A stretch of 64,000 bases of DNA from Candidatus Effluviviaceae Genus I sp. (GCA_016867725.1 VGIX01000002.1:36314-100313); one strand, 5' to 3'. Positions 4,299-18,802 are shown, counted from the first letter of the stretch. Numbers and translations: made by a program. The notes: generated by a model from the letters alone, not told the origin.

Positions 4299-5372
4299 CT
4301 ACTTCGGGGTCTTGACGAGGATCGCCACGCCGATGCCCGCGAAGAGGATGTTGGCCAGCCACGCGCCGAGAGCGGGGGGAAGCATCCCCTCGCGGCCGAG
4401 GACGTTGCCCACCTGAAGAACTCCGTAGTACACGAACGAGATGGCCAGCGCGGCTGCGAAGGCCAGCGCGAAGCCTCCGCGGCGGGCGCCCGCGGCCATG
4501 GGGGCGCCCAGAAGCGTCATGATGAGCGTGACGAAAGGGAACGAGAGCTTGAGAGCGAGCTGCACCGGGAGGTCGCCGGGGTGCACTCCGCTGACCCGGA
4601 GCCTCTCGATGTGCGCCTTGAGATCCGCGTAGCCAAGCTCTTCCGGCTTGAGTTGCCTCGTCGAGAGGTCGCGCGGCGCCGGGCCGTCCGCGGGGAGAAC
4701 GAGCGCCCCGAACACCGCCGTCGACTCCGCCTCGGCGCTGAAGCGCCTGAGCCGGACGTCGCGGAGGACCCAGCGCCCGTCCTCCCACGTGCCGGAGGCT
4801 GCGTCGAAGCGCGCGCACGGGCGGAGGTCCGTGTCGAACTGCTGGACCGTCACCTCTTCGAGCAGTCCCCTCCTCAGGTCGAACCGCTTCGCGAGCAGCG
4901 TCGAGCCGTCGGGCCACATGTAGATCACGTCCGATCGGAAGGCGCTCGACGGGCGCTTCCTGATGTGGTTCTCGTGGATCTCGATCCGCTGTCTCGTCGC
5001 GATGGGCACGACCGTCTCGGCCACCAACAGGCTGAGCGCTGAGAGCGTCGCGGCGAGCACGACCACGGGAAGGAAGGCCCGGTAGAGCGACAGGCCGGAG
5101 CCCTTCATTGCCGTGAGCTCGTTGGAGCGCGTGAGCGCCCCGAACGCGAGGAGCGTCGCGAGCAGCATGGCGACGGGCGCCGTGAGGACCATGATGTAGG
5201 GCGCGAAGTAGACGTAGTAGAGAAGAACCACCGTCGGCGGCGTGTTGTTGTCTATGAACGTGTGTGCGTGGTCGAAGAGGTCCACGAGGACGAAGATGCC
5301 GACGAACGCGGCGAACACGAGCGCCAGCGGCACGAGGGTGCGGCGCAGGATGTAGCCGTCGAGCGTGGTCAT
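4299..5372 (-). CDS. LptF/LptG-family LPS export permease (YjgP/YjgQ)
   Basis: N-terminus MTTLDGYILRRTLVPLALVFAAFVGIFVLVDLF and a 6-TM architecture with a periplasmic beta-jellyroll region are typical of LptF/G. Its start overlaps the upstream paralogue stop by 4 nt (ATGA). Confidence 0.75.
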   Translation of the reverse strand: MTTLDGYILRRTLVPLALVFAAFVGIFVLVDLFDHAHTFIDNNTPPTVVLLYYVYFAPYIMVLTAPVAMLLATLLAFGALTRSNELTAMKGSGLSLYRAFLPVVVLAATLSALSLLVAETVVPIATRQRIEIHENHIRKRPSSAFRSDVIYMWPDGSTLLAKRFDLRRGLLEEVTVQQFDTDLRPCARFDAASGTWEDGRWVLRDVRLRRFSAEAESTAVFGALVLPADGPAPRDLSTRQLKPEELGYADLKAHIERLRVSGVHPGDLPVQLALKLSFPFVTLIMTLLGAPMAAGARRGGFALAFAAALAISFVYYGVLQVGNVLGREGMLPPALGAWLANILFAGIGVAILVKTPK

Positions 5373-6727
5373 GCGGCGCTCCCGGCGCCGCGGCGGGCCC
5401 CCGTGGGAACTCTGAGGACGAAGTCGAGGACGTTGCCGACCAGGCGGATCCTCCACTCCAGCACCGTGAAGAGCGTCAGGAACACGCCGAGCCCGCCGAA
5501 GAGCACGTTCGGCGCCCACATGGCCCAGAAGGGGCTCACGAGCCCCCGATCGCCCAACTGCTCGCCTCCGATGAGGAACAGGTAGTAGATGAGGAAGAAG
5601 AGGATGCCGATGCCTGCGCCGATGCCGACGCCGCCGCGTCGCGCGCGGATGCCGATGGGGGCGCCGAGAAGCACGAACACGATGCACGCGACGGGGACGG
5701 ACAGCTTCTTGTGACACTCCACCTCGAGCTTGCGCGCCTTGCCCATTTCGCTCTGCACGGCCCTGAGCGCCGCCTGGGCGGCACGCGTGGCCTGCGCGCG
5801 CTGTCGCTCGATGTCCACGCGCGCCCGCTGCGTGCCTCCCGCGTCGGCCGCATCGAGAAGCGAGCCGACGTACGTCTCCAGTGAGAAGACGGCTCGCGTG
5901 CGCGCCGCATCGAGGTCCTTCTGGTGCGTCACGATCCTCTCGCGCAGCTCGGCGAGAGAGAGCTCTCGATCTCCGCGGCGGGCCTCTTCGCCTCTGACGA
6001 GTTCGGCGCTGGCGCCCTCCACGTTGATCACGTGCTTCGCGAATACCAGTCGGTTGTACCTCGTCGGATCCTCGCGATCGACGTTGTGGATCTCGCCGTC
6101 CCACAGCTCCAGAGTCAGCACGTCGCTGTCCGCGGAGGAAACAACGCGCCCGCGGGCGGCGACGATGATCTGTACGGGTTCTCCGCCCTCGAGCCTGTAC
6201 ATCCTGGCGCGGAAGATCTCGGAGGTTCGTGGATCGGCCCTGTCGACGATGATCGTGTAGCCCGCCGGAAGCTCCGTCAGCACGCCCGGCTGGATGGTGG
6301 CCAGCGGCCGCATCCGGTGGATGCTCACGAGGAGCGACTTGAGCCTGTGATTGGCCTCAGGAAGCGCGTGGTTCCCGAAGTGGAAGAGCCCCACGGCGAC
6401 CAGCGTCGCGGCAACGAGCACGGGCGTCATGAGCGTCAGGACGTGCACGCCGCTGGCCTTGGCGGCCGTGATCTCGTTGTCCTGCGCCAGGCGACCGAAG
6501 GTGGTCAGGACGGCGACCATGACGGCCATGGGCACGGCGAGGACGGTCATCCAGGCGAGGGAGAGCCCGAAGGCCTCGAGGACGGCCGGCCCCGGCACGC
6601 CCCTTCCGATGAAGAGCTGAAGGTAGTCCACGATGAAGTCCATGGAGAGAACGAAGTAGAAGATGGCAAGCCCCGCGGCGGCGGGGGCGATGTGCGAGCG
6701 CAGCACGTATCGCGTGAGAATGGTCAC
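5369..6727 (-). CDS. LptF/LptG-family LPS export permease (YjgP/YjgQ), second paralogue
   Basis: VTILTRYVLRSHIAPAAAGLAIFYFVLSMDFIVDYL is an LptF-like N-terminus. GTG start chosen at 6727. The C-terminus carries TM helices (GIGAGIGILFFLIYYLFLIGG). Tandem with the downstream paralogue. Confidence 0.7.
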   Translation of the reverse strand: MTILTRYVLRSHIAPAAAGLAIFYFVLSMDFIVDYLQLFIGRGVPGPAVLEAFGLSLAWMTVLAVPMAVMVAVLTTFGRLAQDNEITAAKASGVHVLTLMTPVLVAATLVAVGLFHFGNHALPEANHRLKSLLVSIHRMRPLATIQPGVLTELPAGYTIIVDRADPRTSEIFRARMYRLEGGEPVQIIVAARGRVVSSADSDVLTLELWDGEIHNVDREDPTRYNRLVFAKHVINVEGASAELVRGEEARRGDRELSLAELRERIVTHQKDLDAARTRAVFSLETYVGSLLDAADAGGTQRARVDIERQRAQATRAAQAALRAVQSEMGKARKLEVECHKKLSVPVACIVFVLLGAPIGIRARRGGVGIGAGIGILFFLIYYLFLIGGEQLGDRGLVSPFWAMWAPNVLFGGLGVFLTLFTVLEWRIRLVGNVLDFVLRVPTGARRGAGSAA

Positions 6728-6886: not shown

Positions 6887-6915
6887 TTGACACACGCCGG
6901 ATGCCCTGATAGAGT
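6887..6915 (+). promoter_or_regulatory. Sigma70-type promoter for the giant OMP gene (TTGACA-N17-TAGAGT, TG-extended -10)
   Basis: cTTGACAcacgccggatgccctgaTAGAGTg with a 17-nt spacer and TG at -15/-14. Implies a roughly 180-nt 5' UTR before the ATG at 7103. Confidence 0.5.
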
Positions 6916-7102: not shown

Positions 7103-10100
7103 ATGGGACTCAGGCGCGCCGTGACGCTGGTGCTGCTCGCGCTGTCGGCCGCCCTTGCGCCGCCGCGCGTGACGGCGCACGGCGAGGCCGCTGATCCGGA
7201 GCTCCCGGCAGCCCAGACGGCTGCGGTGGATAGCCTCTTCCTCCTGCCTCAAGAGCTTGACCAGGGTCCCTTCCTTCCAGCGGCTCCGGACACGGTGAGC
7301 GAGGCGCCTGCCGAGCCGGTGGAGACCTCCGTCCGGCCCGAGATGCGGCCCTGGGCGGGCAGGGGAGTCCCCGTCAAGGTGCCTTTCCAGTTCTTCAGAC
7401 CGTGGTCGGTGGGACCGGCTTCGATCCGACGAGGGCTTTCCCCCGGCTGGACGGCGCTTCCCTCGGCGGCCCCTTCGGGCGCTCCGTTCGAGCGGCGCCT
7501 CGCCGTTGACCTCGCAGGGCGCGCGGCCATCGTCACCCGCGCCGGAACCGCCGCGTCGTTCACGAGCTACGCGGCGCCGCTGCCGGAGTACGAGAGGGCG
7601 ATCCGCGGCGTGAGCGCGCGGGACGCGTGGGGGTCCACGGTCACCCGGAAGCTCAAGGAGCAGTCCGCCAGGTCGTCGCGCGGCCTTCTCGACATCGACA
7701 TCCCCATGCCGTTGCCCGAGCCCATCGTTCGCGCGATCGGCGCGGGCGCCAATCTCAAGGTCCGCGGAAGCGAACGCATCACGTTCGGCGGCAGGACGAG
7801 CTACCTCGTTGACGCGCTCGACCAGGAGTCGGGGCCTCCCTCGAAGTGGCCGCAGCTCGACATGCAGCAGCAGCTCACCGTGAACCTCGAAGGCACCATC
7901 GGAGACAAGATCCACGTCTACGTTGACCACAGGAGCGGTGGGACGTCCTACGGCACGGGCAAGGCGAACCAGATCCGCGTGCGGTACGAGGGCGAGGAGG
8001 ACGAGGTCCTTCAGACGATCGAGCTCGGGGAGGTGAACCTCTCCCTGCCCGGCGCCGAGTTCGTGAGCTACAGCGGGTCCCAGGAGGGTCTCTTCGGAGC
8101 GAAGATGACCGCGAAGCTGGGCAAGCTCGACGTCGTGGGCATTGCGAGCAAGGCGGAGGGCAAGTCCGCCGGCGCCAGCTTCGCGGGGACCTCCGAGGCC
8201 GACTCGCTGACGATCAAGGACATCGCCTACAAGGCCAGAACGTACTACGCCATCGACTCCGACGTGCTCAAGTACGCGAACGTGGGTCTGCGCAGCGTCC
8301 GCGTCTACGTGGACGACCGCAACGGCGCCAACGACCTGACCACCGGCGCGTCGCCGGGCCGCGCCTATCTGACGGCGCCGGCAGGCTCCGTCCCGCCGCC
8401 GACCGGACCGAGCCAGCGAGGCATGTTCGACGAGCTCGTCGAGCTGCAGGACTACCTCGTGGACTACGGAAGCGGCATCCTCGAGTTCCTGAGCCCGGTC
8501 AACGCGAACCACGTGCTCGCCGTGTCGTACGTCAGGCTGGACGGAGGCGCCGTCGGGGGACACGACGGCGACACGCTCAGGATCAAGCTCATCAAGAAGG
8601 ACGACCGCGTCGCCGGCACGCCGTGGGAGCCGGTGAGGCTCCACGAGCTCAAGAACGTCTACGACCTGGGCGCGACCAACATCCCCGAGGACGGGTTCGC
8701 GCTCGAGATCCGGAAGCGCACGCCGTCGGGGGAGATCCTCGACAACCAGGACGGCGTTCCGTACGTGCGGATCCTGGGGCTCGACACGCACGGCCCGGGC
8801 GGAGGCGGCGACCCCGACGGCGTCGTTGACCGCGAGTGGATCGACTTCGAGAAAGGGCATCTCTTCTTCCCCCACTTCACACCCTTCTGTCCCGAGTATG
8901 ACGCGACGGACTTCTACTACGCTCCGGGCGGCGGGCCGGATCCCATCTACACGGCGGACGAACTCGACCCGAAGAACTGCGCCGTCTACTCGCGGGAGGT
9001 CTTCCTGCCGGGCGACGACGTCTACTTCCTCGTCGTGAAGTACGACCGCCCGCGCACGACCTTCTACCTCGGGCAGATGAACATCATCGAGAACAGCGAG
9101 GTGGTCAGGCTCAACGGCGTGGCGCTCACCCGCGGCGTCGACTACACCATCTACTACCCGGCGGGCCAGCTCACGCTGCTATCCGAGGAGGCGAAGCAAC
9201 CCGACGCGAGGGTCACGGTCGACTTCGACTACCAGCCGTTCGGGATCGGCGGAGAGAAGACCCTGCTGGGCGTGCGCGGCTTGTACAACTGGAGCGAGAA
9301 CGTCAAGCTGGGCACGACGTGGATGTACCAGAGCAAGGGTGCGCCCGAGGACCGGCCGCGGCTGGGCGAGGAGCCGTCGAGGACGGTGCTCGGAGACGTC
9401 AACCTGACGGCGACGTTCGCGCCCGGCGTCCTCACGCGGATCGCGGACGCCGTCCCGCTCGTGAGCACGGACGCGCCGTCGAAGGTGACGGTCTCGGCCG
9501 AGGCCGCCGTGTGCGTGCCGGACCCCAACACCAAGGGGTTCGTCACGATCGACGACATGGAGGGCGTGAAGAACGTCAACATGCTCGGCGTGACCAGGCG
9601 GCTGTGGACGTGGGCGAGCGTTCCCGCCGCGACCGGCGTCGCCGCCGAAGACCGCATGCGCATCAGCTGGTACAACCCCGACCGCAAGGTGCGCGAGGGA
9701 GACCTGCACCCGGAGCTCACGGGACAGGAGGCCAACGACATCCGCACGGTCCTCGAGATCGACTACGACGCCGCGGCCCCGTCGTCCTCGTGGGCCGGCC
9801 TCATGCGCCTTCTCTCCAAGACGGGGATGGACTACTCGCGCGACGAGTTCATCGAGGTGTGGGTGCACGACAACGGGTACCGCGAGGGGAAGCTCCTCAT
9901 CGACCTGGGGACGGTGAGCGAGGACTTCTATCCGCTCCTCGCGCCGAACGGCACTCTGGACTCGGAGGACGTGGACCAGAACGGCTTCGACGCGAGCGAG
10001 GACACGGGGCTCGACCGCGTCGTCGGCGTGGACGGGCAGAACGTGCCCGGGGACGACGGCGATGACGACTACGAGTACACGTACGGAACCAGCGACTACT

Positions 10101-13100
10101 CGAAGATCAACGGGACGGAGCGGAACGAGCGGCTGGACACCGAGGACCTGAACGGGAACTGGTACCTGGACACCGAGAGCAGGTACTGGGAGATCGAGAT
10201 CGACCTGTCGGATCCCACGTACGTAGTGCAGGACAACGGCGACCTCGTGAGCGGCAACCACTGGCGGCTCTACCGGGTGCCGCTGGACAGGGCCGTCCCG
10301 GTGAACGGGATGGCCGACTGGGTTGCGGTGAAGTCGGCGCGCGTGTGGCTCACCGGGCTCAGGCAGGGCGGCCTCCCGCTCATGATCGGTTCCATGGACA
10401 TCGTGGGAAGCCAGTGGGAGGCCGACGGCATCCGGGACTCGACGGGTGCGGTCGTTCCCGAAGCCCAGATGGGGAACATGAGCTTCCGGGTCACCGCGAA
10501 GAACACCAAGGAGAACGCGGACTACTACCCGCCGTTCGCCGTCGAGATCAACGAGGAGACCGGGATCCCCGAGCGCGAGCAGTCGCTCGTTCTCCTCTAC
10601 GAGAACATCGAGTCCGGCTTCAGCGGCGCCGCGCGGAAGGTGTACTACTCCGACGATGACTACACGGGGTACGAGTCCCTTGAGCTGTTCGTCCACGGGA
10701 GCGCGGGGATCGACCCGGGATCGGTGTTCTTCGTCCGCATCGGCGCCGACACGGTCAACTACTACGAGTACAGCTTCGAGGTGAGCCCGGGGTGGCGGCA
10801 GCGGTTCGGCTCGCTCTCGAACAGCCTGATCGTGCCGCTGACCTCCTTCAGCGATCTCAAGCTCCCTCCGTTCGACACGGCGGACGCGGCTGAGGTCCTT
10901 GGAGACACGACCTCGGTGAAGCGCGAGACGTTCAGGCGGGTGGGGTGGCCGTCGCTGTCCAGGGTGCGCAGGCTCATGGTGGGGGTGCGGAACGCGTGGG
11001 CCGACTCGCTGAGCAGGGACGTGTCGGGCGAGATCTGGGTGGACGACATCAGGCTCACGAACGTCCGCAAGGAGATCGGCTTCGCGGAGCGCGCGACGGT
11101 CAACGTGAGGATGGCGGATCTCGCCGAGCTCAACGTCGACGCCCGCTTCGTGGATCGCGACTTCCATTCGATCAAGCAGACGAGGGGGAGCGGGCAGGAC
11201 AACGCGAGCTACAACGTCACCGGTACGGTGAACGCGGACCGCTTCGTGAGCGCACTCGGCATCGCGGTGCCGGTCAACGTCGTGTGGAGGCGTTCGGTGT
11301 CCCGTCCGCGCTTCTCGACCGGGTCCGACATCGTGTTGGGCGCGGAGGACAGCGACCGCGAGCGCACGGAGAGCGCGGAGCGCAGCGTCGCCGTGTCCTT
11401 CTCCAGGAAGCGGCAGTCGCCGGACTTCTGGACTCATCTCCTCATGGACGGTCTGTCGCTCCGTGCCTCGGCGGCCGCCACCGAGCGCCGGGCTCCGACG
11501 CGGATCGACACGACGGGGGCACTTCGCGGACGGTTGGCCTACCGGTACTCGCCTGAGCGGACGGGGATGACGCTCTATCGGAGCACGAAGCTCTTCCTCA
11601 AGCCCACGAGCTTCCGCTTCGGCGTCGAGTCGCAGGTGTCCAGGAGTCTGAGCTATGACGTCACGCGCTCGGGGTCGCAGACGCTCAGAGCCGACACGCA
11701 CGACAAGAAGCTCGACGCGGACGCGGGCGTTGACTTCCAGCTGCTCGACAACCTCTCCACGTCGCATTCCGTGACCGCGCGGCGCGATCTTGCCCTGCAG
11801 AGCCGGCCGTGGGCGGGCGTGAACATCGGGACGGAGACGCAGCGGCAGTACAGCAACAGCCTGAGCTTCAACCCGAAGTTCGGCGCCTGGCTTTCACCTC
11901 AATACAGCTTCAGCTCCACGTACACCGACAACCACGGACCGGAGGTCCAGCGCGCGGGAGACCCGTGGGGGGTCCACGACCTGCGCGCGCAGACGACCCA
12001 GCAGATCTCGGCCAGCTTCGACCTGAAGAAGATCTTCGGCGTCGGCGCGCCTCACCCGCCCCGCCCGGAGCCGGGAAGGGAGGCGGCCGGCCGCGGGGAG
12101 CGGGGCGGCCCTCCGAGGCCCGAAGGCGAGGAGCGACCGGACGAGGAGACCCCTCCGGAAGAGCCGGCTCCGGAGCAGCCGACTCCTGAGCAGAGGCAGG
12201 AAGAGGAAGCGGGGCCCGATCTGCGGAGACTCCTCGACCCCGTGCTGGCGTTCGTGCGCAACATGGACGCCATCGAGGGCAGGCACACGGTGCGGTGGAG
12301 CTCGCGATTCGACCGCGTGCCGCCGGACCGAGTGCCCGGGTGGCAGTATCGCCTGGGCCTCTTGCCCGGCGAGGGAGCGGATGACCGCACCGAGGAGCGG
12401 TCTCTCGACCTGGGGACCGGGGCGAAGCTCACGCAGGACATCCGTCTCAAGGCCGACTACAAGCGTTCCGTGACCGGGCGATGGTACAGGAACACCGTTG
12501 CCGACTCGGTGAACCTCCTGTCGGCGACCGAGGGTGTGACCCAGACCCGCAAGGCGACGCTGTCGTGGGGGGGCATCGAGAGGATCGGTCCGCTCAAGAC
12601 GGTGTTCACGACCGTTCGCGCGCGCAGCGGCGTCGAGTTCAAGTCATCGTACTCGGGGCCCGAAAACGAGCCGACGACGAGAGGCGATGGGCTCGCCCTT
12701 GCGCCGCTCGTCTCGATCGAGACCACGTTCAAGAACGGGCTTTCGGGGAACCTGTCGTGGGAGCGCAGGCGCTCGAGGAACTACAGCCTGCGCGGAGTCG
12801 GGTCCGTCACCGAGGACGAGGCGAGCTCCACAAGCCTCGCCCTCAAGTACCGGTTCTCCGCGCCGCAGGGTCTCAGGCTGCCGTTCTTCGGGGAGAAGCT
12901 GAAGTTCCAGAGCAATCTGGACTGCTCGCTCACGCTCAAGACGTCGGCGAGGGTGTCGCGGACGGCCATGGATGAGGCCGGGCTCGTGCTGGCGGCCCCG
13001 ACCTCCTCGGTCAAGGACTTCTCGATCGCCGGGGACGCGACCTACAGCTTCTCCAGGAGCGTGTCCGGGGGGCTTCAGATCACCTTCTCTCAGAGCCGCG

Positions 13101-13165
13101 ACGAGAAGCGCGATCAGACGCGGAGGACCATAGGGGTGCACCTGACGGCCGAGTTCAAGTTCTGA
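7103..13165 (+). CDS. Giant outer-membrane beta-barrel protein, SprA-like (candidate type IX secretion translocon), 2020 aa
   Basis: Cleavable signal peptide MGLRRAVTLVLLALSAALAPPRVTAHG. About 2000 aa with amphipathic beta-strand periodicity throughout. The C-terminus ends ...HLTAEFKF, an aromatic OMP beta-signal. The size matches the SprA/Sov family. The upstream 5924-7102 part of the track ORF is rejected because it overlaps lptF and the promoter. Confidence 0.5.
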   Translation: MGLRRAVTLVLLALSAALAPPRVTAHGEAADPELPAAQTAAVDSLFLLPQELDQGPFLPAAPDTVSEAPAEPVETSVRPEMRPWAGRGVPVKVPFQFFRPWSVGPASIRRGLSPGWTALPSAAPSGAPFERRLAVDLAGRAAIVTRAGTAASFTSYAAPLPEYERAIRGVSARDAWGSTVTRKLKEQSARSSRGLLDIDIPMPLPEPIVRAIGAGANLKVRGSERITFGGRTSYLVDALDQESGPPSKWPQLDMQQQLTVNLEGTIGDKIHVYVDHRSGGTSYGTGKANQIRVRYEGEEDEVLQTIELGEVNLSLPGAEFVSYSGSQEGLFGAKMTAKLGKLDVVGIASKAEGKSAGASFAGTSEADSLTIKDIAYKARTYYAIDSDVLKYANVGLRSVRVYVDDRNGANDLTTGASPGRAYLTAPAGSVPPPTGPSQRGMFDELVELQDYLVDYGSGILEFLSPVNANHVLAVSYVRLDGGAVGGHDGDTLRIKLIKKDDRVAGTPWEPVRLHELKNVYDLGATNIPEDGFALEIRKRTPSGEILDNQDGVPYVRILGLDTHGPGGGGDPDGVVDREWIDFEKGHLFFPHFTPFCPEYDATDFYYAPGGGPDPIYTADELDPKNCAVYSREVFLPGDDVYFLVVKYDRPRTTFYLGQMNIIENSEVVRLNGVALTRGVDYTIYYPAGQLTLLSEEAKQPDARVTVDFDYQPFGIGGEKTLLGVRGLYNWSENVKLGTTWMYQSKGAPEDRPRLGEEPSRTVLGDVNLTATFAPGVLTRIADAVPLVSTDAPSKVTVSAEAAVCVPDPNTKGFVTIDDMEGVKNVNMLGVTRRLWTWASVPAATGVAAEDRMRISWYNPDRKVREGDLHPELTGQEANDIRTVLEIDYDAAAPSSSWAGLMRLLSKTGMDYSRDEFIEVWVHDNGYREGKLLIDLGTVSEDFYPLLAPNGTLDSEDVDQNGFDASEDTGLDRVVGVDGQNVPGDDGDDDYEYTYGTSDYSKINGTERNERLDTEDLNGNWYLDTESRYWEIEIDLSDPTYVVQDNGDLVSGNHWRLYRVPLDRAVPVNGMADWVAVKSARVWLTGLRQGGLPLMIGSMDIVGSQWEADGIRDSTGAVVPEAQMGNMSFRVTAKNTKENADYYPPFAVEINEETGIPEREQSLVLLYENIESGFSGAARKVYYSDDDYTGYESLELFVHGSAGIDPGSVFFVRIGADTVNYYEYSFEVSPGWRQRFGSLSNSLIVPLTSFSDLKLPPFDTADAAEVLGDTTSVKRETFRRVGWPSLSRVRRLMVGVRNAWADSLSRDVSGEIWVDDIRLTNVRKEIGFAERATVNVRMADLAELNVDARFVDRDFHSIKQTRGSGQDNASYNVTGTVNADRFVSALGIAVPVNVVWRRSVSRPRFSTGSDIVLGAEDSDRERTESAERSVAVSFSRKRQSPDFWTHLLMDGLSLRASAAATERRAPTRIDTTGALRGRLAYRYSPERTGMTLYRSTKLFLKPTSFRFGVESQVSRSLSYDVTRSGSQTLRADTHDKKLDADAGVDFQLLDNLSTSHSVTARRDLALQSRPWAGVNIGTETQRQYSNSLSFNPKFGAWLSPQYSFSSTYTDNHGPEVQRAGDPWGVHDLRAQTTQQISASFDLKKIFGVGAPHPPRPEPGREAAGRGERGGPPRPEGEERPDEETPPEEPAPEQPTPEQRQEEEAGPDLRRLLDPVLAFVRNMDAIEGRHTVRWSSRFDRVPPDRVPGWQYRLGLLPGEGADDRTEERSLDLGTGAKLTQDIRLKADYKRSVTGRWYRNTVADSVNLLSATEGVTQTRKATLSWGGIERIGPLKTVFTTVRARSGVEFKSSYSGPENEPTTRGDGLALAPLVSIETTFKNGLSGNLSWERRRSRNYSLRGVGSVTEDEASSTSLALKYRFSAPQGLRLPFFGEKLKFQSNLDCSLTLKTSARVSRTAMDEAGLVLAAPTSSVKDFSIAGDATYSFSRSVSGGLQITFSQSRDEKRDQTRRTIGVHLTAEFKF

Positions 13166-14100
13166 TGCGGATGACCCGAGCACGCGAGACCCGGCGGCGT
13201 TGCGCGCGCCGAAGGCGCGGCGGCCGTCTGGTCGCCGTCGCGCTCGCGGCGGCGTGGGCGGCCACGCTGACGGGGTGCGGGCGGCCGCAGTTCGACGGGG
13301 AGCGCGCGTTCCGCTTCCTGGAGCGCCAGTGCGCGATGGGGCCGCGCGCGCCGGGCAGCGCCGGCCACGCTGAGGCGGAGCGCTGGCTCATCGAGACGCT
13401 CGAGGGGCTCGCCGACGAGGTGGCGGTCCAGCGGTTCACCGCCGTCTCCCGCGGGCGTGAGGTGGGTTTCGCGAACGTCATCGCGTCGTTCAGACCGGCG
13501 GCCCGGGAACGGGTCCTGTTCGCGACGCACTGGGACACGCGGCCGGTGGCAGACCTCGACCCGGACCCCGCGCGGCGGGGAACGCCGATCCCCGGGGCGA
13601 ACGACGGCGCCTCCGGAACGGCCGTGTTGCTGGAGCTCGCGACGCTCATGAGCGAACGGCCGCCGAAGGTCGGCGTCGATCTGGTGTTCTTCGACGGGGA
13701 GGACGGCGGAGGGGCCGGCGGGCTTGCGGGGTGGTGCCTCGGGTCGACGCACTACGCGGCCCGCCTCGGCGACTACTGCCCGCGCCTCGCGGTCGTCGTA
13801 GACATGGTCGGCGACGCGGACCTCTCCATTCCCGTGGAGCCCAACTCTCTGGCCGGCGCTCCCGAGGCGGTGGCGACCGTCTGGGCTGCGGCGCGGCGGG
13901 CCGGCTCCCTCGCCTTCGAGGACCGGCGGGGGCGGGCCATGTTCGACGACCACATCCCGCTCCTCAGGGCCGGGCTCCCGGCCGTGCTCGTCATCGATGC
14001 GGAGTACGAGTTCTGGCACACTCTCGCGGATACGCCGGACAAGTGCAGCCCGCGCAGCCTCACCGAGGTCGGGCGCGTGCTGGTCCGGCTGACCCACTAG
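13165..14100 (+). CDS. Glutaminyl-peptide cyclotransferase-like M28 zinc enzyme, lipoprotein
   Basis: Lipobox AATLTGCG. HWDTRPVAD, GANDGASGTAVLLELA, VFFDGEDGG, DDHIPLLRAGLPAVLVI and WHTLADTP align with the QC motifs FFDGEEAF, DDHIPFLRRGVPVLHLI and WHTMDDN. The start overlaps the SprA-like stop (TGATG). Confidence 0.75.
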   Translation: MRMTRARETRRRCARRRRGGRLVAVALAAAWAATLTGCGRPQFDGERAFRFLERQCAMGPRAPGSAGHAEAERWLIETLEGLADEVAVQRFTAVSRGREVGFANVIASFRPAARERVLFATHWDTRPVADLDPDPARRGTPIPGANDGASGTAVLLELATLMSERPPKVGVDLVFFDGEDGGGAGGLAGWCLGSTHYAARLGDYCPRLAVVVDMVGDADLSIPVEPNSLAGAPEAVATVWAAARRAGSLAFEDRRGRAMFDDHIPLLRAGLPAVLVIDAEYEFWHTLADTPDKCSPRSLTEVGRVLVRLTH

Positions 14101-14176: not shown

Positions 14177-14236
14177 GGTCGTCGGGAAGTGGGCGGGAGC
14201 CCACTTTCTCGGTATTGGGCCCCGGGGGGGAGAGCC

Positions 14237-14749
14237 ATGGCCAAGGACGAGGAGAGGCTCTTCGAGCTTGCCCGCGGCACCGTCGAGGGCATGGGGTACT
14301 GCCTCGTCGCCGTCGAGGACCGGCCCGAGCACGGCCGGCGGGTGCTGCGGTTCATCATCGACCACCCCCGTGGCATCGGGATCGAGGACTGCGCGGCGGT
14401 GAGCCGCGAGCTCGGCTACGTGCTCGACGGGGCGTCGGGCATCGACGAGCGGTACGCCCTGGAGGTAAGCTCGCCGGGAACCGACAGGGAGCTTCGGACC
14501 GAGCGGGAGTACCTGCACTTCGCCGGGCGGGAGGTCCGCATGGTCTTGCGCGAGCCTGTGGGCGGCAGGTCCGTCGTCCAGGGGACGATCGTCGGCGTGG
14601 GCCCCGACGGCGTGCGCGTGAGGCCGCGCGGGGAGGCCGAGGACGTCGTCGTGCCGCTCGGCGGCATTTCCCGCGCAAGGCTCGTCGGCGAGGAGAAACC
14701 GCGTCCCGAAGCGGTTCGGGACGCTCCATCACGAGGGTGCGGTTCATGA
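14237..14749 (+). CDS. rimP: Ribosome maturation factor RimP
   Basis: LEVSSPGTDRELRTEREY motif (DUF150). RBS GGGGGGAGAG lies before the ATG at 14237. Stop overlaps the nusA start (ATGA). Confidence 0.8.
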   Translation: MAKDEERLFELARGTVEGMGYCLVAVEDRPEHGRRVLRFIIDHPRGIGIEDCAAVSRELGYVLDGASGIDERYALEVSSPGTDRELRTEREYLHFAGREVRMVLREPVGGRSVVQGTIVGVGPDGVRVRPRGEAEDVVVPLGGISRARLVGEEKPRPEAVRDAPSRGCGS

Positions 14750-16248
14750 ACACGGGTGTCCTGGAGGCTCTGAGGAGGATGGCGAGGGAGAAGCAGCTGG
14801 ACCAGGCGCTTCTCATGGAGGCGCTCGAGGCCGGGCTTCTCTCGGCTGCGCGGAAGAAGTACGGGCTCGAGGCCGGTGTCGAGGTGGTCGTCGACGACAA
14901 ACACGACACGCTGGGGGTCTACCTCAAGAAGGCCGTCGTGGAAGAGACGGACGACGACGTCATGGAAATCGAGCTCGACGAAGCGCGCGAGATCGATCCG
15001 AGCGCCACGGTGGGGGACACCGTCAGGGTCGAGGTGCCCTTCGACGAGTTCGGGCGCAACGCCGTGCAGGCCGCCAAGCAGATCGTCGTGCAGCGCGTCC
15101 GCGAGGCGGAGCGCGAGCAGATCTACGACGAGTACCAGGACCGGATCGGCGAGATCGTGACCGGTGACGTGCAGCAGATCGAGCGAGGCGGGATCGTCGT
15201 GAACCTTGGGCGGACCGAGGCGCTGCTGCCGGCGAGGGAGCAGATCCGTCGGGAGCGATACCGCCAGGGAGACAGGGTGCGCGCCTACCTCCTGTCCGTG
15301 GAGAAGACGACCAAGGGGCCCCAGATCATCCTGTCGCGAACGCAGCCCAACTTCCTCAAGAAGCTCTTCCGGATGGAGGTGCCCGAGATCTACGACTCGG
15401 TCGTCGAGATCATGGCGATCGCGCGGGAGGCCGGCGGCCGCTCCAAGGTCGCCGTTGCGTCGCACGACGAGCGCGTCGATCCGGTCGGCGCGTGCGTCGG
15501 CGTCAAGGGCTCCCGGATCCAGACGATCGTCCGCGAGCTCTCCGGAGAGAAGATCGACATCGTGCCGTGGAGCTCCGACCCGTCCGTGCTCGTGTCGAGG
15601 GCCCTCAACCCGGCCAAGGTCTCGAAGGCCATCCTCAACGACGCGGAGCACTCCGTGCGCGTGATCGTGCCGGACGACCAGCTCTCTCTCGCGATCGGCA
15701 AGGGCGGGCAGAACGCTCGACTGGCCGCGAAGCTGACCGGGTGGAAGATCGACATCGTCGGCGAGACGGAGCATGCCAGGGACCTCGAGATCGGCCTCGC
15801 GCAGCGCGTCGGCGTTGGAGAGCTGCCCGGCGTGGGCCCCAAGTTGGCGGCGGCGCTCGCCGTGGCGGGCTATCGTTACGTCAGGGACCTGGACGGCGTG
15901 ACGACCGAGGACCTCCTCAAGGTGCCGGGTGTCGGCGAGAAGACCGCGGAGAAGATATCCATTTCGGTCGCCGCGGTCCTCGAGGTTCTCGAGGAGGAGA
16001 AGCAGGAGATGCTCCGCGAGATGGAGGAGCGTGCCCGCGCTGAGGCGATGCGCCGCGCTGAGGCTCAGGAGCCGCGCTACGACGCGGAGCCGTCGGAGCC
16101 GGGCGAGGCGGACGCCGAAGGGGAAGAGCCCGAGGAGGGCGCGGAGGAGGGCGACGACGCTGCGCCCGCCGACGCCAGCGACGAAGGCGCAGTGGAGCAG
16201 GGCGAAGCCGCCGCGACGGAGGGCGAAGCCCAGCCTGAGGAGCGGTAG
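14746..16248 (+). CDS. nusA: Transcription termination/antitermination factor NusA
   Basis: MNTGVLEALRRMAREKQLDQALLMEALEAGL. S1, KH (LAIGKGGQNARLAAKLTGWKIDI) and HhH regions are present. Acidic C-terminal tail. Confidence 0.9.
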   Translation: MNTGVLEALRRMAREKQLDQALLMEALEAGLLSAARKKYGLEAGVEVVVDDKHDTLGVYLKKAVVEETDDDVMEIELDEAREIDPSATVGDTVRVEVPFDEFGRNAVQAAKQIVVQRVREAEREQIYDEYQDRIGEIVTGDVQQIERGGIVVNLGRTEALLPAREQIRRERYRQGDRVRAYLLSVEKTTKGPQIILSRTQPNFLKKLFRMEVPEIYDSVVEIMAIAREAGGRSKVAVASHDERVDPVGACVGVKGSRIQTIVRELSGEKIDIVPWSSDPSVLVSRALNPAKVSKAILNDAEHSVRVIVPDDQLSLAIGKGGQNARLAAKLTGWKIDIVGETEHARDLEIGLAQRVGVGELPGVGPKLAAALAVAGYRYVRDLDGVTTEDLLKVPGVGEKTAEKISISVAAVLEVLEEEKQEMLREMEERARAEAMRRAEAQEPRYDAEPSEPGEADAEGEEPEEGAEEGDDAAPADASDEGAVEQGEAAATEGEAQPEER

Positions 16249-16291
16249 CGCACGCCGAGCGCCCGTTCGGGTCGAGCGATGGAGGTTGCGG

Positions 16292-18802
16292 GTGACGAAG
16301 AAGCGCATCTATCAGGTGGCCAAGGAGTTCCGCATCTCGAGCGAGGCCCTCGTCGGCATGCTCAAGAAGCTCGGCGTTGACGCGGCGAGCCACATGAACA
16401 CGATCGAGGACGACGAGATCGAGAGGGCCCGGGCCGAGTTCGAGAAGGAAAAGGAAGCGCTGAAGCGGGAGTACGCCAAGAAGCTCAAGCGGGCGGTGAA
16501 GGAGAAGGCGGCGGCCCCGGCTTCGGGCGCGGCGCGTGCGACGGCTCCGGCCCCGCCCCCCGGAGGAGCCAAGGAGCCTCCTGCCCATGAGCCCCCTCCC
16601 GCACGGACCCCGACGGCCACGGCGAAGTCTGCACCCACACCGGTCGTTCCCAGGTACGTCAAGCCGGTGCTCCCGGTCGGCGGCATCCCGGTCGTGAAGC
16701 GGATCGAACGACCGGCGGCCGCGCCCCGTGAGGGGGCGGCCGCGCAGCCGGCGGCGCCCGAGAAGAGGAAGGGGGCGCAACGCTCGGTGGAGCCTCCCCC
16801 CCCGGCCGGACCGGGGCCCGTGGGAGCGGACGCCCTGAGGGCGACGCTGGCGGCGCGCGAAGCGGCCGAGGCCCTCGCGAAGAAGAAGCGCCGCAGAAGA
16901 CCGCGGATCGACCAGAAGAGCGTCGAGGACACGGTGCGACGGACGCTCGCCGGGACGCTGGACCAGAGAGGGAGGCGAAGGCACAGGAGGGATCGCGACG
17001 AGGGAGAGGACGTCGAGGGGACCGTGGAGGAGAGGATCCCGATCCCAGAGTTCTCCTCGGTCGCGGAGTTCGCTGAGCGGCTCGGTGTTCCGGCGAACGA
17101 CGTCATCAAGAAGTGCATGGACCTGGGGCTTCTCGTCACGATCAACCAGAGGCTGGACGAAGACACGATCCTCCTGCTCGCCGACGAGTTCGACGCGGAC
17201 GTCGAGTTCATCCACGAGTACGGCGAGGACATCCTCGAGGACGCGCTCGAGAAGGCGGTCGTGGCGGCGGAGCTGGTGCCGCGCGCGCCCGTGGTGGCGG
17301 TGATGGGACACGTGGATCACGGCAAGACGCTGCTCCTCGACTACATCCGGCGGACGAACGTCGTGGCGGGCGAGGCCGGCGGCATCACGCAGCACATCGG
17401 CGCGTACGAGGTCTCGCACGGCGGAAAGGGCATCACGTTCCTCGACACGCCGGGTCATGAGGCCTTCACCGCCATGCGCGCGAGGGGCGCGCAGGTCACC
17501 GACGTCGTCGTGCTCGTCGTCGCCGCCACGGAGGGGGTGATGCCCCAGACGCTCGAGGCGATCGACCACGCGAAGGCCGCGGGCGTCCCCGTGATCGTGG
17601 CCGTCAACAAGATCGACCTCCCGGCGGCGAATCCCGACAAGGTCAAGACCGAGCTCGCCAACGCGGGGCTCACGGTGGAGGAGTGGGGCGGTGGCACGGT
17701 GGCGGTCGAGACGTCGGCGAAGAGCGGACTCGGAGTGGACAAGCTCCTGGACATGGTCGTGCTGCAGTCGGAGCTCCTCGAGCTTCGGTCCACGCCAGAT
17801 GGCCCGGCGCGAGGCGTCGTCATCGAGGTGGAGAAGGAGAGGGGGCGGGGCGTCGTCACGACCGTTCTCATCGAGGCGGGCACGCTCAGGGTGGGCGACC
17901 CGTTCGTCGTCGGGCTGGCCGACGGCAAGGTGCGGGCGCTGTACAGCGACCGCGGCGTCTCCCTGGAAACGGCGGGCCCGTCGACGCCCGTCCGGGTGTC
18001 CGGTCTCACGGGCGTCCCGCAGGCCGGCGACGTGCTGGCGGTCGTCTCGGACGAGCGCCTTGCCCGCGACATCAGCGCGAAGCGCCGCCAGCAGCAGTGG
18101 GAGCGGCAGACGCGATTCGAGCATCGGGTGACGCTGGAGGACCTCCACAAGCAGATCGCCGTCGGCGCCGTCAAGGAGCTGGGGATCATCATCAAGGGCG
18201 ACGTGGACGGCTCGGTGGGGGCGCTCGCGGACGCGCTCGAGAAGCTGTCGACGCCCGAGGTCAAGGTCGTCGTCATCCGCAAGGCGGTCGGCGCCGTCAC
18301 CGAGACGGACGTGCTGCTGGCCGCGGCGTCCAACGCGATCATCGTCGGGTTCCACATCAGCGCAGCGCCGCGGGTGAGGGAACTCGCGAAGCGCGAGCGC
18401 GTGGAGATCAGGCTCTACAAGGTGATCTACGAGGTGGTCGAGGACATCCGCGCGGCGATGGAGGGCCTCCTGGAGCCGGAGCGTCGCGAGGTTCCGGTCG
18501 GCAGGGCGGAGGTGCGCGAGGTCTTCCGCATCCCGAACAGAGGGCTCGTGGCCGGCTGCTACGTCCTCTCGGGATCGGTGAAGCGCGGGTCCCGAGCGCG
18601 CGTGATCCGTGACGAGATGGTGGTGTACGAGGGGACGATCGACTCGCTCAGGCGCTTCAAGGATGATGCGCGCGAGGTGCAGACCGGCTTCGAGTGCGGC
18701 ATCGGCATGGAGGGCCTCGGCGACGTGCAGGCGAACGACCTCATCGAGACCTACGACATCGAGGAGGTCGCTCGGAAGCTGAGCGCGGCGTCCGGGCGCT
18801 AG
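16292..18802 (+). CDS. infB: Translation initiation factor IF-2
   Basis: GTG at 16292 with GGAGG 7 nt upstream. N-terminus MTKKRIYQVAKEFRISSEAL. G-domain AVMGHVDHGKTLLLD...DTPGHEAF...NKID. Ala/Pro-rich linker. Confidence 0.9.
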   Translation: MTKKRIYQVAKEFRISSEALVGMLKKLGVDAASHMNTIEDDEIERARAEFEKEKEALKREYAKKLKRAVKEKAAAPASGAARATAPAPPPGGAKEPPAHEPPPARTPTATAKSAPTPVVPRYVKPVLPVGGIPVVKRIERPAAAPREGAAAQPAAPEKRKGAQRSVEPPPPAGPGPVGADALRATLAAREAAEALAKKKRRRRPRIDQKSVEDTVRRTLAGTLDQRGRRRHRRDRDEGEDVEGTVEERIPIPEFSSVAEFAERLGVPANDVIKKCMDLGLLVTINQRLDEDTILLLADEFDADVEFIHEYGEDILEDALEKAVVAAELVPRAPVVAVMGHVDHGKTLLLDYIRRTNVVAGEAGGITQHIGAYEVSHGGKGITFLDTPGHEAFTAMRARGAQVTDVVVLVVAATEGVMPQTLEAIDHAKAAGVPVIVAVNKIDLPAANPDKVKTELANAGLTVEEWGGGTVAVETSAKSGLGVDKLLDMVVLQSELLELRSTPDGPARGVVIEVEKERGRGVVTTVLIEAGTLRVGDPFVVGLADGKVRALYSDRGVSLETAGPSTPVRVSGLTGVPQAGDVLAVVSDERLARDISAKRRQQQWERQTRFEHRVTLEDLHKQIAVGAVKELGIIIKGDVDGSVGALADALEKLSTPEVKVVVIRKAVGAVTETDVLLAAASNAIIVGFHISAAPRVRELAKRERVEIRLYKVIYEVVEDIRAAMEGLLEPERREVPVGRAEVREVFRIPNRGLVAGCYVLSGSVKRGSRARVIRDEMVVYEGTIDSLRRFKDDAREVQTGFECGIGMEGLGDVQANDLIETYDIEEVARKLSAASGR

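What the first reader, a model, noticed from the sequence alone, without database searches (positions are those of the whole stretch)
7103..14100. Giant SprA-like outer-membrane beta-barrel gene with its stop overlapping the start of a glutaminyl-cyclase lipoprotein gene
Sequence: a 2020-aa secreted protein with a signal peptide, beta-strand periodicity throughout and the terminal AEFKF beta-signal overlaps the start of an M28-family protein by TGATG. The second protein's motifs match eukaryotic and bacterial glutaminyl cyclases (FFDGED, DDHIPLLRAGLPAVLVI, WHTLAD) and it carries an LTGC lipobox. Established knowledge: in Porphyromonas the lipoprotein glutaminyl cyclase PG2157 pyroglutamylates the new N-termini of type IX secretion cargo, and SprA/Sov is the type IX translocon. 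The two are not known to be encoded together. Inference: a direct translocon and cargo-maturation operon would be a new genetic linkage, in a lineage that does not look like a classical Bacteroidetes (sigma70 -35/-10 promoters, 70% GC).
Basis: partly seen in the sequence, partly recalled or inferred. Interest (0 to 1): 0.7.

Follow-up and report, generated by a model that had tools for sequence, protein, structure and literature searches.

The report
Conserved SprA translocon and glutaminyl cyclase operon
A candidate-phylum bacterium (Ca. Eisenbacteria) encodes the giant type IX secretion pore SprA directly fused, stop-to-start, to a lipoprotein glutaminyl cyclase. Both are ordinary members of known families, but this gene pair recurs in many related phyla outside the classical Bacteroidetes and I found no paper describing it.

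Summary
A 2020-aa ORF (7103-13165, +) is a true SprA/Sov homologue: it scores 529 bits on TIGR04189 (cutoff 200), its family profile aligns end to end with the solved F. johnsoniae SprA, and a model of its C-terminal 1200 aa hits only SprA structures strongly. Its TGA shares one base with the ATG of a 311-aa lipoprotein (13165-14100). That protein is a PgQC-type type II glutaminyl cyclase by sequence, fold and catalytic and QC-specific residues.

The pairing is not peculiar to this genome. In 36 of 72 informative loci from one-genome-per-species contigs, a SprA gene ends immediately upstream of the QC gene on the same strand. These loci cover Eisenbacteria, Gemmatimonadota, Ignavibacteria, Marinimicrobia, Zixibacteria, KSB1 and Calditrichaeota. 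The spacing is usually between a 4-nt overlap and about 25 nt. The pair was absent in all Bacteroidota loci checked, the phylum of the experimental models used for both proteins.

I found no paper describing the linkage. The Q-rule paper noted only a phylogenetic coincidence between T9SS and Q-rule species. No other T9SS gene lies in the window or its roughly 10-kb flanks. QC is a general modifier of signal-peptidase-I substrates, not a cargo-specific one. Verdict: known proteins in a real, ancient and seemingly undescribed operon, of moderate interest.

The parts
6887..6915 (+). Sigma-70-like promoter candidate (TTGACA-17-TAGAGT, extended TG) in the 375-bp lptF/sprA divergent intergenic region, 188 nt upstream of the sprA ATG
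   Evidence: 1 site found against 0.2 expected. This is a consensus match only; function is not shown.
7103..13165 (+). sprA/sov: 2020-aa T9SS outer-membrane translocon homologue, stop codon included
   Evidence: TIGR04189, 529 bits (cutoff 200), E = 2.4e-158. PF14349 SprA_N. PDB 6h3i SprA, E = 5e-35; family profile colinear with 6h3i_A residues 48-2401. Foldseek top four hits are all SprA. JGI gene call has the same start.
7103..7177 (+). SprA Sec/SPI signal peptide (aa 1-25, MGLRRAVTLVLLALSAALAPPRVTA, predicted cleavage before HGE)
   Evidence: read from the sequence. The cleavage site is inferred from the -3/-1 rule.
9929..10141 (+). Asp-rich DxDxDG-like segment of SprA (aa 943-1013), predicted disordered or flexible
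   Evidence: AF2 pLDDT below 50.
10103..12031 (+). Best-conserved SprA core (aa 1001-1643 match TIGR04189 positions 1074-1818; the Pfam SprA_N match is aa 1006-1405)
12044..12226 (+). Pro/Glu-rich low-complexity insert in SprA (aa 1648-1708)
   Evidence: pLDDT below 50.
13148..13162 (+). C-terminal AEFKF, an OMP beta-signal-like terminus ending in Phe
   Evidence: The role as a BAM signal is inferred.
13163..13167 (+). TGATG: the sprA stop overlaps the QC start by one base. An alternative ATG lies at 13171.
   Evidence: The same 1-nt overlap occurs in L001, L055 and L083. A 4-nt ATGA overlap occurs in L039, L074, L077, L078 and L079.
13165..14100 (+). Type II (PgQC-like) glutaminyl cyclase lipoprotein of the M28 family, 311 aa
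   Evidence: PgQC 6qql E = 4e-46, F. ruber QC 7d1b E = 4e-47. PF04389. AF2 pLDDT 89, and the top 50 Foldseek hits are all QC family (46 named QC; 4 older BT_2548/BDI_3547/bvu_1317 entries that PMC7948796 proposes reannotating as QCs), with TM-scores normalised to the target of 0.82-0.90 for the nearest bacterial QCs.
13267..13278 (+). Lipobox LTGC (Cys38 is the lipidated residue)
   Evidence: Cys38 is at least 90% conserved in 22 homologues.
13603..14019 (+). QC active-site span. Zn ligands are D147 (13603-13605), D180 (13702-13704) and H285 (14017-14019). It also holds the general base E179, D213, D262, and the QC-type residues G148, W190 and W284.
   Evidence: alignment to PgQC, read with the PgQC residues D149/D183/H299, G150, W193 and W298 from PMC7948796. 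All except W190 are invariant in alignment A1.
4299..6727 (-). Divergent lptG (4299-5372) and lptF (5369-6727), LPS-export permease genes. They form a conserved neighbour of sprA in many lineages.
   Evidence: Conservation is shown.
14189..18802 (+). Downstream rimP-nusA-infB operon (continuing with rbfA-truB-ribF-rpsO-pnp to 24175). It follows a non-coding gap of 88-136 nt after the QC stop.
   Evidence: The same neighbours occur in L001, L004, L012, L028, L045, L061, L083 and L084.

Best explanation
Gene identities (shown). The locus is a two-gene unit in a Ca. Eisenbacteria genome. [quoted passage not shown]

Expression (inferred). The two genes are probably co-transcribed from a sigma-70-type promoter upstream of sprA. 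The shared stop/start suggests translational coupling.

Mechanism (inferred from characterised homologues). Sec exports pre-proteins, and signal peptidase I exposes a new N-terminus. Where that residue is Gln, the membrane-tethered QC cyclises it to pyroglutamate, which caps periplasmic, outer-membrane and secreted proteins against aminopeptidases. SprA then passes proteins bearing a C-terminal sorting domain across the outer membrane. Placing QC behind sprA co-expresses the N-terminal capping enzyme with the secretion pore.

Evolution (shown). The pairing is an old, vertically inherited arrangement. It is shared by Eisenbacteria, Gemmatimonadota, Ignavibacteria, Marinimicrobia, Zixibacteria, KSB1 and Calditrichaeota. 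It is broken in Bacteroidia and Rhodothermales.

Limit. QC acts as a general SPI-substrate enzyme here, not as a cargo-specific one.
For: SprA identity:
- TIGR04189 equivalog at 529 bits against a cutoff of 200, plus Pfam SprA_N.
- The family profile aligns in a single stretch to F. johnsoniae SprA residues 48-2401, 1200 bits.
- An AF2 model of aa 821-2020 (pLDDT 79) consists of long beta-strands. Its top four Foldseek hits are SprA translocon structures at E = 1e-42 to 1e-52. The next hit is at 6e-6.

QC identity:
- The best PDB sequence matches are bacterial QCs at E = 1e-43 to 1e-47. Aminopeptidases score 1e-8 to 1e-11.
- The AF2 model has pLDDT 89. All top 50 Foldseek hits are QC family (46 named QC; four are older BT_2548/BDI_3547/bvu_1317 entries that PMC7948796 proposes reannotating as QCs).
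- D147, E179, D180, D213, D262, W284, H285 and the QC-type G148 are invariant in 22 homologues. They map onto PgQC D149, E182, D183, W298, H299 and G150 (PMC7948796).
- The lipobox Cys is conserved.

Coupling:
- The stop and start overlap by 1 nt.
- No convincing terminator lies between the genes; the single weak terminator-like match in this interval lies inside the QC coding sequence (13667-13682), and the four matches found are not clearly above the 2.0 expected.
- One promoter-like site lies upstream of sprA.

Conservation:
- SprA ends directly upstream of QC in 36 of 72 loci that have at least 1 kb of upstream sequence.
- The spacing is mostly between -4 and +25 nt.
- From the SprA side, 2 of 6 sampled homologues have QC directly downstream. 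Both carry the full lptGF|sprA-QC-rimP-nusA-infB block.
- SprA and QC pairwise identities correlate, with Mantel r = 0.84 and 0 of 2000 permutations reaching it.

Substrate plausibility: in 35 Eisenbacteria-like SprA orthologues, the first polar residue after the signal-peptide core is Gln in 16. Gemmatimonadota and KSB1 SprAs show A|Q sites.
Against: - No other T9SS component or CTD-bearing cargo lies in the 64-kb window or its roughly 10-kb flanks. T9SS function in this organism is therefore not shown.
- This SprA and its three closest orthologues lack Gln at the predicted cleavage site.
- The same QC subfamily occurs without an adjacent SprA in Poribacteria, Armatimonadota and Acidobacteria, and in some Gemmatimonadota where sprA is missing from the conserved position (L067: lptFG, TonB-dependent receptor, QC). 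QC therefore does not depend on SprA.
- Published P. gingivalis data argue against pyroglutamate controlling T9SS targeting (PMC5837995).
- Co-transcription, enzyme activity and membrane location are all inferred.
Confidence: 0.75

Rival explanations
1. Dedicated accessory. The QC lipoprotein is a specific, co-evolved T9SS factor in non-Bacteroidia lineages. Pyroglutamylation of SprA, other T9SS parts or cargo would be needed for translocon biogenesis or secretion, possibly through physical association. The operon would reflect that dependence rather than mere co-expression.
For: - Tight stop/start coupling is conserved across at least 7 phylum-level lineages.
- sprA-QC is the most persistent pair within the wider block. 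It survives where lptFG or rimP-nusA are absent.
- About half of SprA orthologues themselves expose Gln.
- T9SS components and cargo have among the highest Q-values in P. gingivalis, at 86% (PMC10653852).
- A 'striking phylogenetic coincidence' between T9SS and the Q-rule was noted in PMC5837995.
Against: - QC persists without an adjacent sprA, and in phyla not known to have a T9SS (Fimbriiglobus and Acidobacteriales QC structures).
- Mutating the +1 Gln of RgpB and Kgp did not block secretion (PMC5837995).
- The window's SprA has His at +1.
- PgQC is reported at the inner membrane, far from SprA (PMC7948796).
Confidence: 0.15
2. Neutral synteny. The adjacency is inherited gene order inside a conserved housekeeping block (lptFG, sprA, QC, rimP-nusA-infB) and has no functional meaning beyond shared ancestry.
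For: - The flanking genes are unrelated housekeeping operons that are also conserved in several lineages.
- The Mantel correlation is expected for any two vertically inherited genes.
- The pair has been lost repeatedly, apparently without loss of either gene family.
Against: Gene order rarely survives across phylum-level divergence without selection. Here the pair keeps the same strand, the same order and near-zero spacing while its neighbours change. Overlapping stop/start codons recur independently as TGATG and ATGA forms.
Confidence: 0.2
3. Mis-assigned functions. The M28 protein is an ordinary di-zinc aminopeptidase, and/or the large barrel is not a T9SS pore in this lineage (for example a TamB/AsmA-like or other transport protein).
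For: - Pfam and NCBIfam give only generic matches (Pfam M28 family; sub-cutoff NCBIfam peptidase hits), and NCBI names the protein 'M28 family peptidase'.
- The metal ligands are shared between QCs and aminopeptidases.
- No partner T9SS genes were seen locally.
Against: - QC-discriminating residues are present: Gly after the bridging Asp, Trp before the His ligand, and Asp in place of the Glu ligand (PMC7948796).
- All top 50 fold hits are QC family, including older entries since proposed for reannotation as QCs.
- SprA matches the equivalog-level model well above its cutoff and aligns end to end with the solved translocon.
- No TamB/AsmA-like hit appeared.
Confidence: 0.05

Closest known systems
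SprA (Flavobacterium johnsoniae Fjoh_1653; PDB 6H3I, 8GL8) and Sov (Porphyromonas gingivalis PG0809), the T9SS outer-membrane translocon
   Same: Same family by the equivalog HMM. The family profile is colinear over the whole length of the solved protein. It has a Sec signal peptide, a C-terminal aromatic terminus, long beta-strands, and Foldseek top hits to SprA.
   Different: It is about 380-480 aa shorter (2020 aa against 2403 for the solved chain; the Sov comparison is from memory). Identity to Bacteroidota SprAs is only about 20-25%. It carries a Pro/Glu-rich insert and an Asp-rich segment. Its genomic context is lptFG|sprA-QC, whereas the Bacteroidia-type loci sampled have ruvA-sprA.
PgQC (P. 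gingivalis PG_2157/PGN_0202; PDB 6QQL), TfQC and BtQC: bacterial type II glutaminyl cyclases
   Same: About 35% identity. It shares the same fold (TM-score normalised to the target 0.85-0.90), the single-zinc triad Asp/Asp/His, the general base Glu, the QC-type Gly and Trp residues, and an N-terminal lipobox (PMC7948796).
   Different: The loop before the Trp-His motif is shorter (alignment). The gene is translationally coupled to sprA, whereas PgQC heads an operon with PG_2158 and hemG (PMC10653852). Activity and membrane location are untested.
The Bacteroidetes Q-rule (SPI exposes Gln, QC makes pGlu; Bochtler et al. 2018, Szczesniak et al. 2023)
   Same: The same enzyme family is present. 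Many SprA orthologues in the paired lineages have A|Q-type cleavage sites. Ignavibacterium album, from a class that carries the pair, had the highest reported Q-value outside Bacteroidetes and Chlorobi, 77% (PMC5837995).
   Different: The Q-rule was described as specific to Bacteroidetes. Whether Eisenbacteria follow it genome-wide is untested. My heuristic test was uninformative, and this window's SprA does not follow the rule.

Membership tests
SprA/Sov T9SS translocon (TIGR04189 / PF14349) | Scores above the curated cutoff of the equivalog HMM TIGR04189 and of Pfam SprA_N | tested here: met
   529.2 bits against 200; 84.5 bits against 27.
SprA/Sov T9SS translocon (TIGR04189 / PF14349) | Full-length colinearity with the structurally solved translocon | tested here: met
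   the family profile (positions 87-1962) aligns in one stretch to 6h3i_A residues 48-2401, 1200 bits; the single sequence gives E = 5e-35.
SprA/Sov T9SS translocon (TIGR04189 / PF14349) | Giant (36-strand) outer-membrane beta-barrel | tested here: inconclusive
   Only aa 821-2020 could be modelled because of the 1200-aa limit. That model has pLDDT 79 and more than 25 long strands. Its Foldseek top four hits are SprA at E = 1e-42 to 1e-52, but TM is only 0.48. Strand count and barrel closure were not determined.
SprA/Sov T9SS translocon (TIGR04189 / PF14349) | Sec signal peptide and an OMP-type C-terminal aromatic residue | tested here: met
   N-terminal MGLRRAVTLVLLALSAALAPPRVTA and C-terminal AEFKF.
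SprA/Sov T9SS translocon (TIGR04189 / PF14349) | Co-occurrence with the other core T9SS genes (GldK/L/M/N or PorK/L/M/N, PorV, PorU, SprE/T) and with CTD cargo | not testable with these tools
   None were found in the 64-kb window or its roughly 10-kb flanks.
Bacterial type II glutaminyl cyclase (PgQC-like, M28 fold) | Closest sequence and fold relatives are characterised QCs rather than aminopeptidases | tested here: met
   QCs at 1e-43 to 1e-47 against aminopeptidases at 1e-8 to 1e-11; the top 50 Foldseek hits are all QC family (46 named QC; four older BT_2548/BDI_3547/bvu_1317 entries proposed for reannotation as QCs in PMC7948796), with TM-scores normalised to the target of up to 0.90.
Bacterial type II glutaminyl cyclase (PgQC-like, M28 fold) | Zn triad Asp-Asp-His (PgQC D149/D183/H299) and the general base Glu (E182) | tested here: met
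   D147, D180, H285 and E179 align with these residues and are invariant in 22 homologues. The residue numbers come from PMC7948796.
Bacterial type II glutaminyl cyclase (PgQC-like, M28 fold) | Residues that separate QCs from aminopeptidases: Gly (not Asn/Asp) after the bridging Asp, Trp (not Tyr) before the His ligand, and the Trp193 equivalent | tested here: met
   G148 and W284 are invariant. W190 is present here and is aromatic (Trp, Phe or Tyr) in all 22 aligned homologues (PMC7948796).
Bacterial type II glutaminyl cyclase (PgQC-like, M28 fold) | N-terminal lipoprotein anchor | tested here: met
   Lipobox LTGC. Cys38 is at least 90% conserved. Which membrane carries the anchor is not testable.
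Bacterial type II glutaminyl cyclase (PgQC-like, M28 fold) | Gln-cyclising activity with a single zinc | not testable with these tools
   This requires an enzyme assay and metal analysis.
Q-rule organism (most SPI substrates start with Gln) | High genome-wide fraction of Gln at +1 of SPI sites | tested here: inconclusive
   The heuristic signal-peptide scan over the loci failed its positive control, giving only 20% for Bacteroidota. Family-level data: Gln is the first polar residue in 16 of 35 Eisenbacteria-like SprAs. In the window, 1 of about 3 SPI substrates starts with Gln.

The most novel reading that the evidence does not exclude
[quoted passage not shown] QC would be needed for the stability or biogenesis of SprA, other T9SS parts or cargo. 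On this reading the Bacteroidetes Q-rule is a later genome-wide expansion of what began as a T9SS-linked modification.
Probability: 0.15. Interest if true: 0.7.

Novelty: new member of a known kind. Interest (0 to 1): 0.42.

Why it matters
T9SS and the QC/Q-rule system have both been studied almost only in Bacteroidota, where their genes are unlinked. A possible connection was raised there from phylogenetic co-occurrence and then set aside.

A translationally coupled sprA-QC pair conserved across at least seven other phylum-level lineages is independent genomic-context evidence that the two are co-regulated. It extends PgQC-type cyclases, and probably Gln-first signal-peptide cleavage, well beyond Bacteroidetes. 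It also suggests looking for this pair in cultured members of Gemmatimonadota, Ignavibacteria and Calditrichota, where the link could be tested.

QC is a drug target in P. gingivalis, so its ancestral role is of some practical interest. The proteins themselves are ordinary members of known families.

Tried and rejected
1. Heuristic signal-peptide and Q(+1) scan of all 80 loci plus the window. It was uninformative: the positive control (Bacteroidota) reached only 20%, and many calls were TM segments or lipoproteins. I dropped it in favour of reading SprA N-termini directly.

2. Search for other T9SS genes by Pfam annotation of about 50 window genes and by extending both window ends by about 10 kb. 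Only housekeeping genes turned up.

3. Literature searches for an already-described sprA-QC linkage or for a T9SS in Eisenbacteria. Nothing was found. Only open-access full text was searched.

4. Attempt to find a cultured Gemmatimonadota carrier through a homologue search with the L079 QC. The top 120 hits were all metagenomic or MAG sequences.

5. Test of whether the window's cyclophilin lipoprotein (33697-34443) is the PPI subunit of the SprA complex. It gave generic cyclophilin hits only, and no T9SS PPI chain was among the 60 matches listed.

6. Rfam and tRNA scans. Nothing lies within 6.6-14.3 kb.

7. The TamB/AsmA-like alternative for the large protein is rejected.

8. QC tied to rimP-nusA rather than to sprA is rejected. 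rimP follows QC only in a subset of the SprA-positive loci, and never without SprA.


Full report
**What is at the coordinates.** The window has about 70% GC throughout. A stop-to-stop ORF runs 5924-13165 on the + strand. Codon-position GC and the translation show that the real gene begins at ATG 7103. The in-frame stretch upstream is the antisense shadow of lptF. An independent JGI gene call on an identical contig starts at the same ATG and gives 2020 aa.

The protein begins with a typical Sec signal peptide, MGLRRAVTLVLLALSAALAPPRVTA|HG. It ends in ...LTAEFKF. The DNA at the junction reads ttcTGATGcggATGacc. The sprA stop (13163-13165) therefore shares its last base with an ATG at 13165. A second ATG at 13171 is the start NCBI chose for the identical protein P0001 (309 aa).

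The downstream ORF (13165-14100) encodes 311 aa. It has a strongly basic N-terminus, a hydrophobic core and the lipobox LTGC.

**Identity of the large protein.** It scores 529 bits on TIGR04189, 'T9SS outer membrane translocon Sov/SprA', an equivalog model with a cutoff of 200. It also matches Pfam SprA_N and the solved F. johnsoniae SprA (6h3i, E = 5e-35).

A profile built from 37 homologues plus the window fragment aligns in one stretch to 6h3i_A residues 48-2401 at 1200 bits. The family is therefore colinear with the translocon over its whole length.

The protein exceeds the 1200-aa modelling limit, so I modelled aa 821-2020 (pLDDT 79). Apart from two low-confidence inserts, the model consists of long beta-strands. 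The inserts are an Asp-rich segment at aa 943-1013 and a Pro/Glu-rich segment at aa 1648-1708.

Foldseek returned four SprA translocon structures at E = 1e-42 to 1e-52. The next hit was at 6e-6. The number of strands and barrel closure were not established.

**Identity of the second protein.** Pfam sees only the generic M28 family. The best PDB sequence matches, however, are the characterised bacterial type II glutaminyl cyclases: Fimbriiglobus ruber QC 7d1b, PgQC 6qql/7cje, BtQC 4fuu, PdQC 3tc8 and TfQC 6qro. They score E = 1e-43 to 1e-47, followed by animal QCs. Aminopeptidases appear only at 1e-8 to 1e-11.

An AF2 model (pLDDT 89) gave QC-family structures as all top 50 Foldseek hits (four under older aminopeptidase/exopeptidase names). 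TM-scores normalised to the target were 0.82-0.90 for the bacterial enzymes.

I read the alignment against the residues described for PgQC in PMC7948796. The zinc ligands D149, D183 and H299 correspond to D147, D180 and H285. The general base corresponds to E179.

The features that separate QCs from di-zinc aminopeptidases are also present. These are Gly after the bridging Asp (G148), Trp before the His ligand (W284), Asp replacing the Glu ligand, and the Trp193 equivalent (W190). D147, G148, E179, D180, D213, D262, W284 and H285 are invariant in 22 homologues. The lipobox Cys is at least 90% conserved. Activity, metal content and which membrane carries the anchor are inferred.

**Host and surroundings.** P0001 is annotated 'M28 family peptidase [Candidatus Eisenbacteria bacterium]' on a 169,723-bp contig. 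Close SprA orthologues are named 'cell surface protein SprA [Candidatus Eisenbacteria bacterium]'. NCBI taxonomy lists this phylum among the candidate phyla.

The gene order is:
- metK, ahcY on the + strand;
- lptG and lptF on the - strand;
- a 375-bp gap holding the only sigma-70-like site in the region (TTGACA-17-TAGAGT);
- sprA and QC on the + strand;
- a gap of 88-136 nt;
- rimP-nusA-infB-rbfA-truB-ribF-rpsO-pnp.

The rest of the window and about 10 kb beyond each end hold housekeeping genes only. I saw no other T9SS component and no CTD cargo.

**Is the linkage special to this genome?** No. I scanned one-genome-per-species contigs with an alignment of QC homologues and kept 80 loci from very diverse lineages. 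I searched them by tblastn with the window proteins and with a SprA HMM built from 24 of the loci.

Of 72 loci with at least 1 kb upstream of QC, 36 have a SprA ORF that ends immediately upstream on the same strand:
- Eisenbacteria: L045, L061, and probably L001;
- Gemmatimonadota: six loci;
- Ignavibacteria: five loci;
- Marinimicrobia: seven loci;
- Zixibacteria: three loci;
- KSB1 and Zhuqueibacter: three loci;
- Calditrichaeota: one locus;
- one locus labelled Cytophagia;
- eight unclassified MAGs.

The distance from the SprA stop to the nearest QC start codon is mostly between -4 and +25 nt. A 4-nt ATGA overlap occurs in four Gemmatimonadota loci and one Zixibacteria locus. The same 1-nt overlap as in the window occurs in L001, L055 and L083.

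The pair was absent in all eight Bacteroidota loci with enough sequence. It was also absent in Cloacimonadota, Fibrobacteres, Kryptonia, Poribacteria, Armatimonadota and an acidobacterium, and in a few Ignavibacteria and Gemmatimonadota. In those loci the gene upstream of QC is unrelated: a TonB-dependent receptor, ribonucleotide reductase, UvrB, a radical-SAM protein, an S13 peptidase or SecA.

I also sampled from the SprA side. Two distant homologues (31-32% identity) carry the complete lptG-lptF | sprA-QC-rimP-nusA-infB block. A Rhodothermales locus, a Chitinophagaceae locus and another Bacteroidia-type locus lack QC, and the latter two have ruvA-sprA instead. One further lineage has lptFG|sprA followed by pilus genes.

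Within the Eisenbacteria-like set, 19 SprA/QC pairs share an identical longest-contig length. SprA and QC pairwise identities over 23 paired loci correlate, with Mantel r = 0.84 and 0 of 2000 permutations reaching it. That fits joint vertical inheritance, although any two vertically inherited genes would behave this way.

sprA-QC is the most persistent element of the block. lptFG accompanies it in at least 14 loci. rimP-nusA accompanies it in fewer, and never without SprA.

**What is known.** PgQC (PG_2157) is an essential inner-membrane lipoprotein. It converts the N-terminal Gln of about 77% of P. gingivalis signal-peptidase-I substrates to pyroglutamate, presumably to protect them from aminopeptidases. 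T9SS parts and cargo are among the richest classes, at 86%. The gene heads an operon with PG_2158 and hemG (PMC10653852; PMC5837995).

Bochtler et al. described a 'striking phylogenetic coincidence' between T9SS and high Q-values. [quoted passage not shown] The exception was a continuum of Q-values elsewhere, reaching 77% in Ignavibacterium album.

T9SS genes are now thought to occur in several other FCB phyla (PMC11285876). No paper I could search mentions sprA-QC adjacency or a T9SS in Eisenbacteria.

**How it most likely works.**
- Shown: the gene identities, the overlap, and the conservation of the pair.
- Inferred: co-transcription from the upstream promoter, with translational coupling.
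- Inferred: QC is tethered to a membrane facing the periplasm, where it caps Gln N-termini exposed by signal peptidase I.
- Inferred: SprA exports CTD-bearing proteins.

Co-expression would ensure that exported proteins are capped whenever the pore is made. SprA itself is a plausible substrate in many carriers. In 35 Eisenbacteria-like orthologues, the first polar residue after the signal-peptide core is Gln in 16 and Asp in 14. Gemmatimonadota, KSB1 and several other SprAs show A|Q sites. This window's SprA and its three nearest relatives do not.

QC persists without an adjacent SprA, and in phyla not known to have a T9SS. I therefore regard it as a general enzyme that is co-regulated with the pore, not a dedicated T9SS subunit. 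I give the dedicated-accessory reading 0.15 and purely neutral synteny 0.2.

**Verdict.** Both proteins are new members of well-known families in a little-studied phylum, and annotation pipelines already name close homologues correctly. What is new is the recognition that sprA and a PgQC-type cyclase form an ancient, tightly coupled gene pair across many phyla outside Bacteroidia. That gives modest but real support to a link between T9SS and pyroglutamylation and makes it testable.

The main gaps are three. The rest of the T9SS in this genome is unshown. The genome-wide Q-rule in these phyla is untested, since my heuristic test failed its positive control. There is no experimental evidence for activity or co-transcription.

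Noticed in passing
window 4299-6727 (-); L001, L004, L005, L012, L032, L034, L037, L045, L061, L063, L068, L074, L077, L079, L083-L085: The LPS-export permease genes lptG-lptF sit divergently upstream of sprA in at least 14 of the sprA-QC loci and in three further SprA loci. The conserved block is therefore larger than the pair. Whether this reflects a link between LPS export and T9SS (cargo is anchored to A-LPS in P. gingivalis) or just old gene order is open.
   Followed up: partly
L067:4500-10950; L057 and L064 upstream of QC; L056:6978-9527: Some Gemmatimonadota keep QC but not sprA at this position. L067 has lptFG, then a TonB-dependent receptor, then QC. L057 and L064 have ribonucleotide reductase upstream. 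In one unclassified MAG (L056), secA lies immediately upstream of QC.
   Followed up: partly
window 9929-10141 and 12044-12226: SprA carries an Asp-rich DxDxDG-like segment (aa 943-1013, possibly calcium-binding) and a Pro/Glu-rich low-complexity insert (aa 1648-1708). Both were modelled with pLDDT below 50.
   Followed up: no
P0121-P0157 N-termini: Eisenbacteria-like SprA orthologues split almost evenly at the first polar residue after the signal-peptide core: Gln in 16 and Asp in 14. This Q/D dichotomy hints that only part of the phylum uses Gln-first processing for this protein.
   Followed up: partly
L012:3418-10278 and L061:3989-9897: SprA is split into two overlapping ORFs by a frameshift in these two MAGs. 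The cause could be an assembly error or a pseudogene, and I did not resolve it.
   Followed up: no
window 38726-39022 and 47913-48537: There are two tRNA clusters (Ser-Ser-Arg and Ser-Ser-Ala). A full-length 'large' bacterial SRP RNA (170 bits) lies just upstream of dnaX-ybaB-recR.
   Followed up: no
window 33697-34443 (+): A cyclophilin-type peptidyl-prolyl isomerase carries a lipoprotein signal (…LLTAVAAGC) and an acidic linker of about 90 aa. It was checked against the PDB because the SprA complex contains a PPI subunit, but it gave only generic cyclophilin matches.
   Followed up: yes
L034 (CAZCJL010000014.1, labelled 'uncultured Cytophagia bacterium'): This locus carries the non-Bacteroidia arrangement lptFG|sprA-QC. 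Its SprA is much closer to the KSB1/Ignavibacteria type than to Bacteroidia SprAs, so the taxonomic label may be wrong.
   Followed up: no
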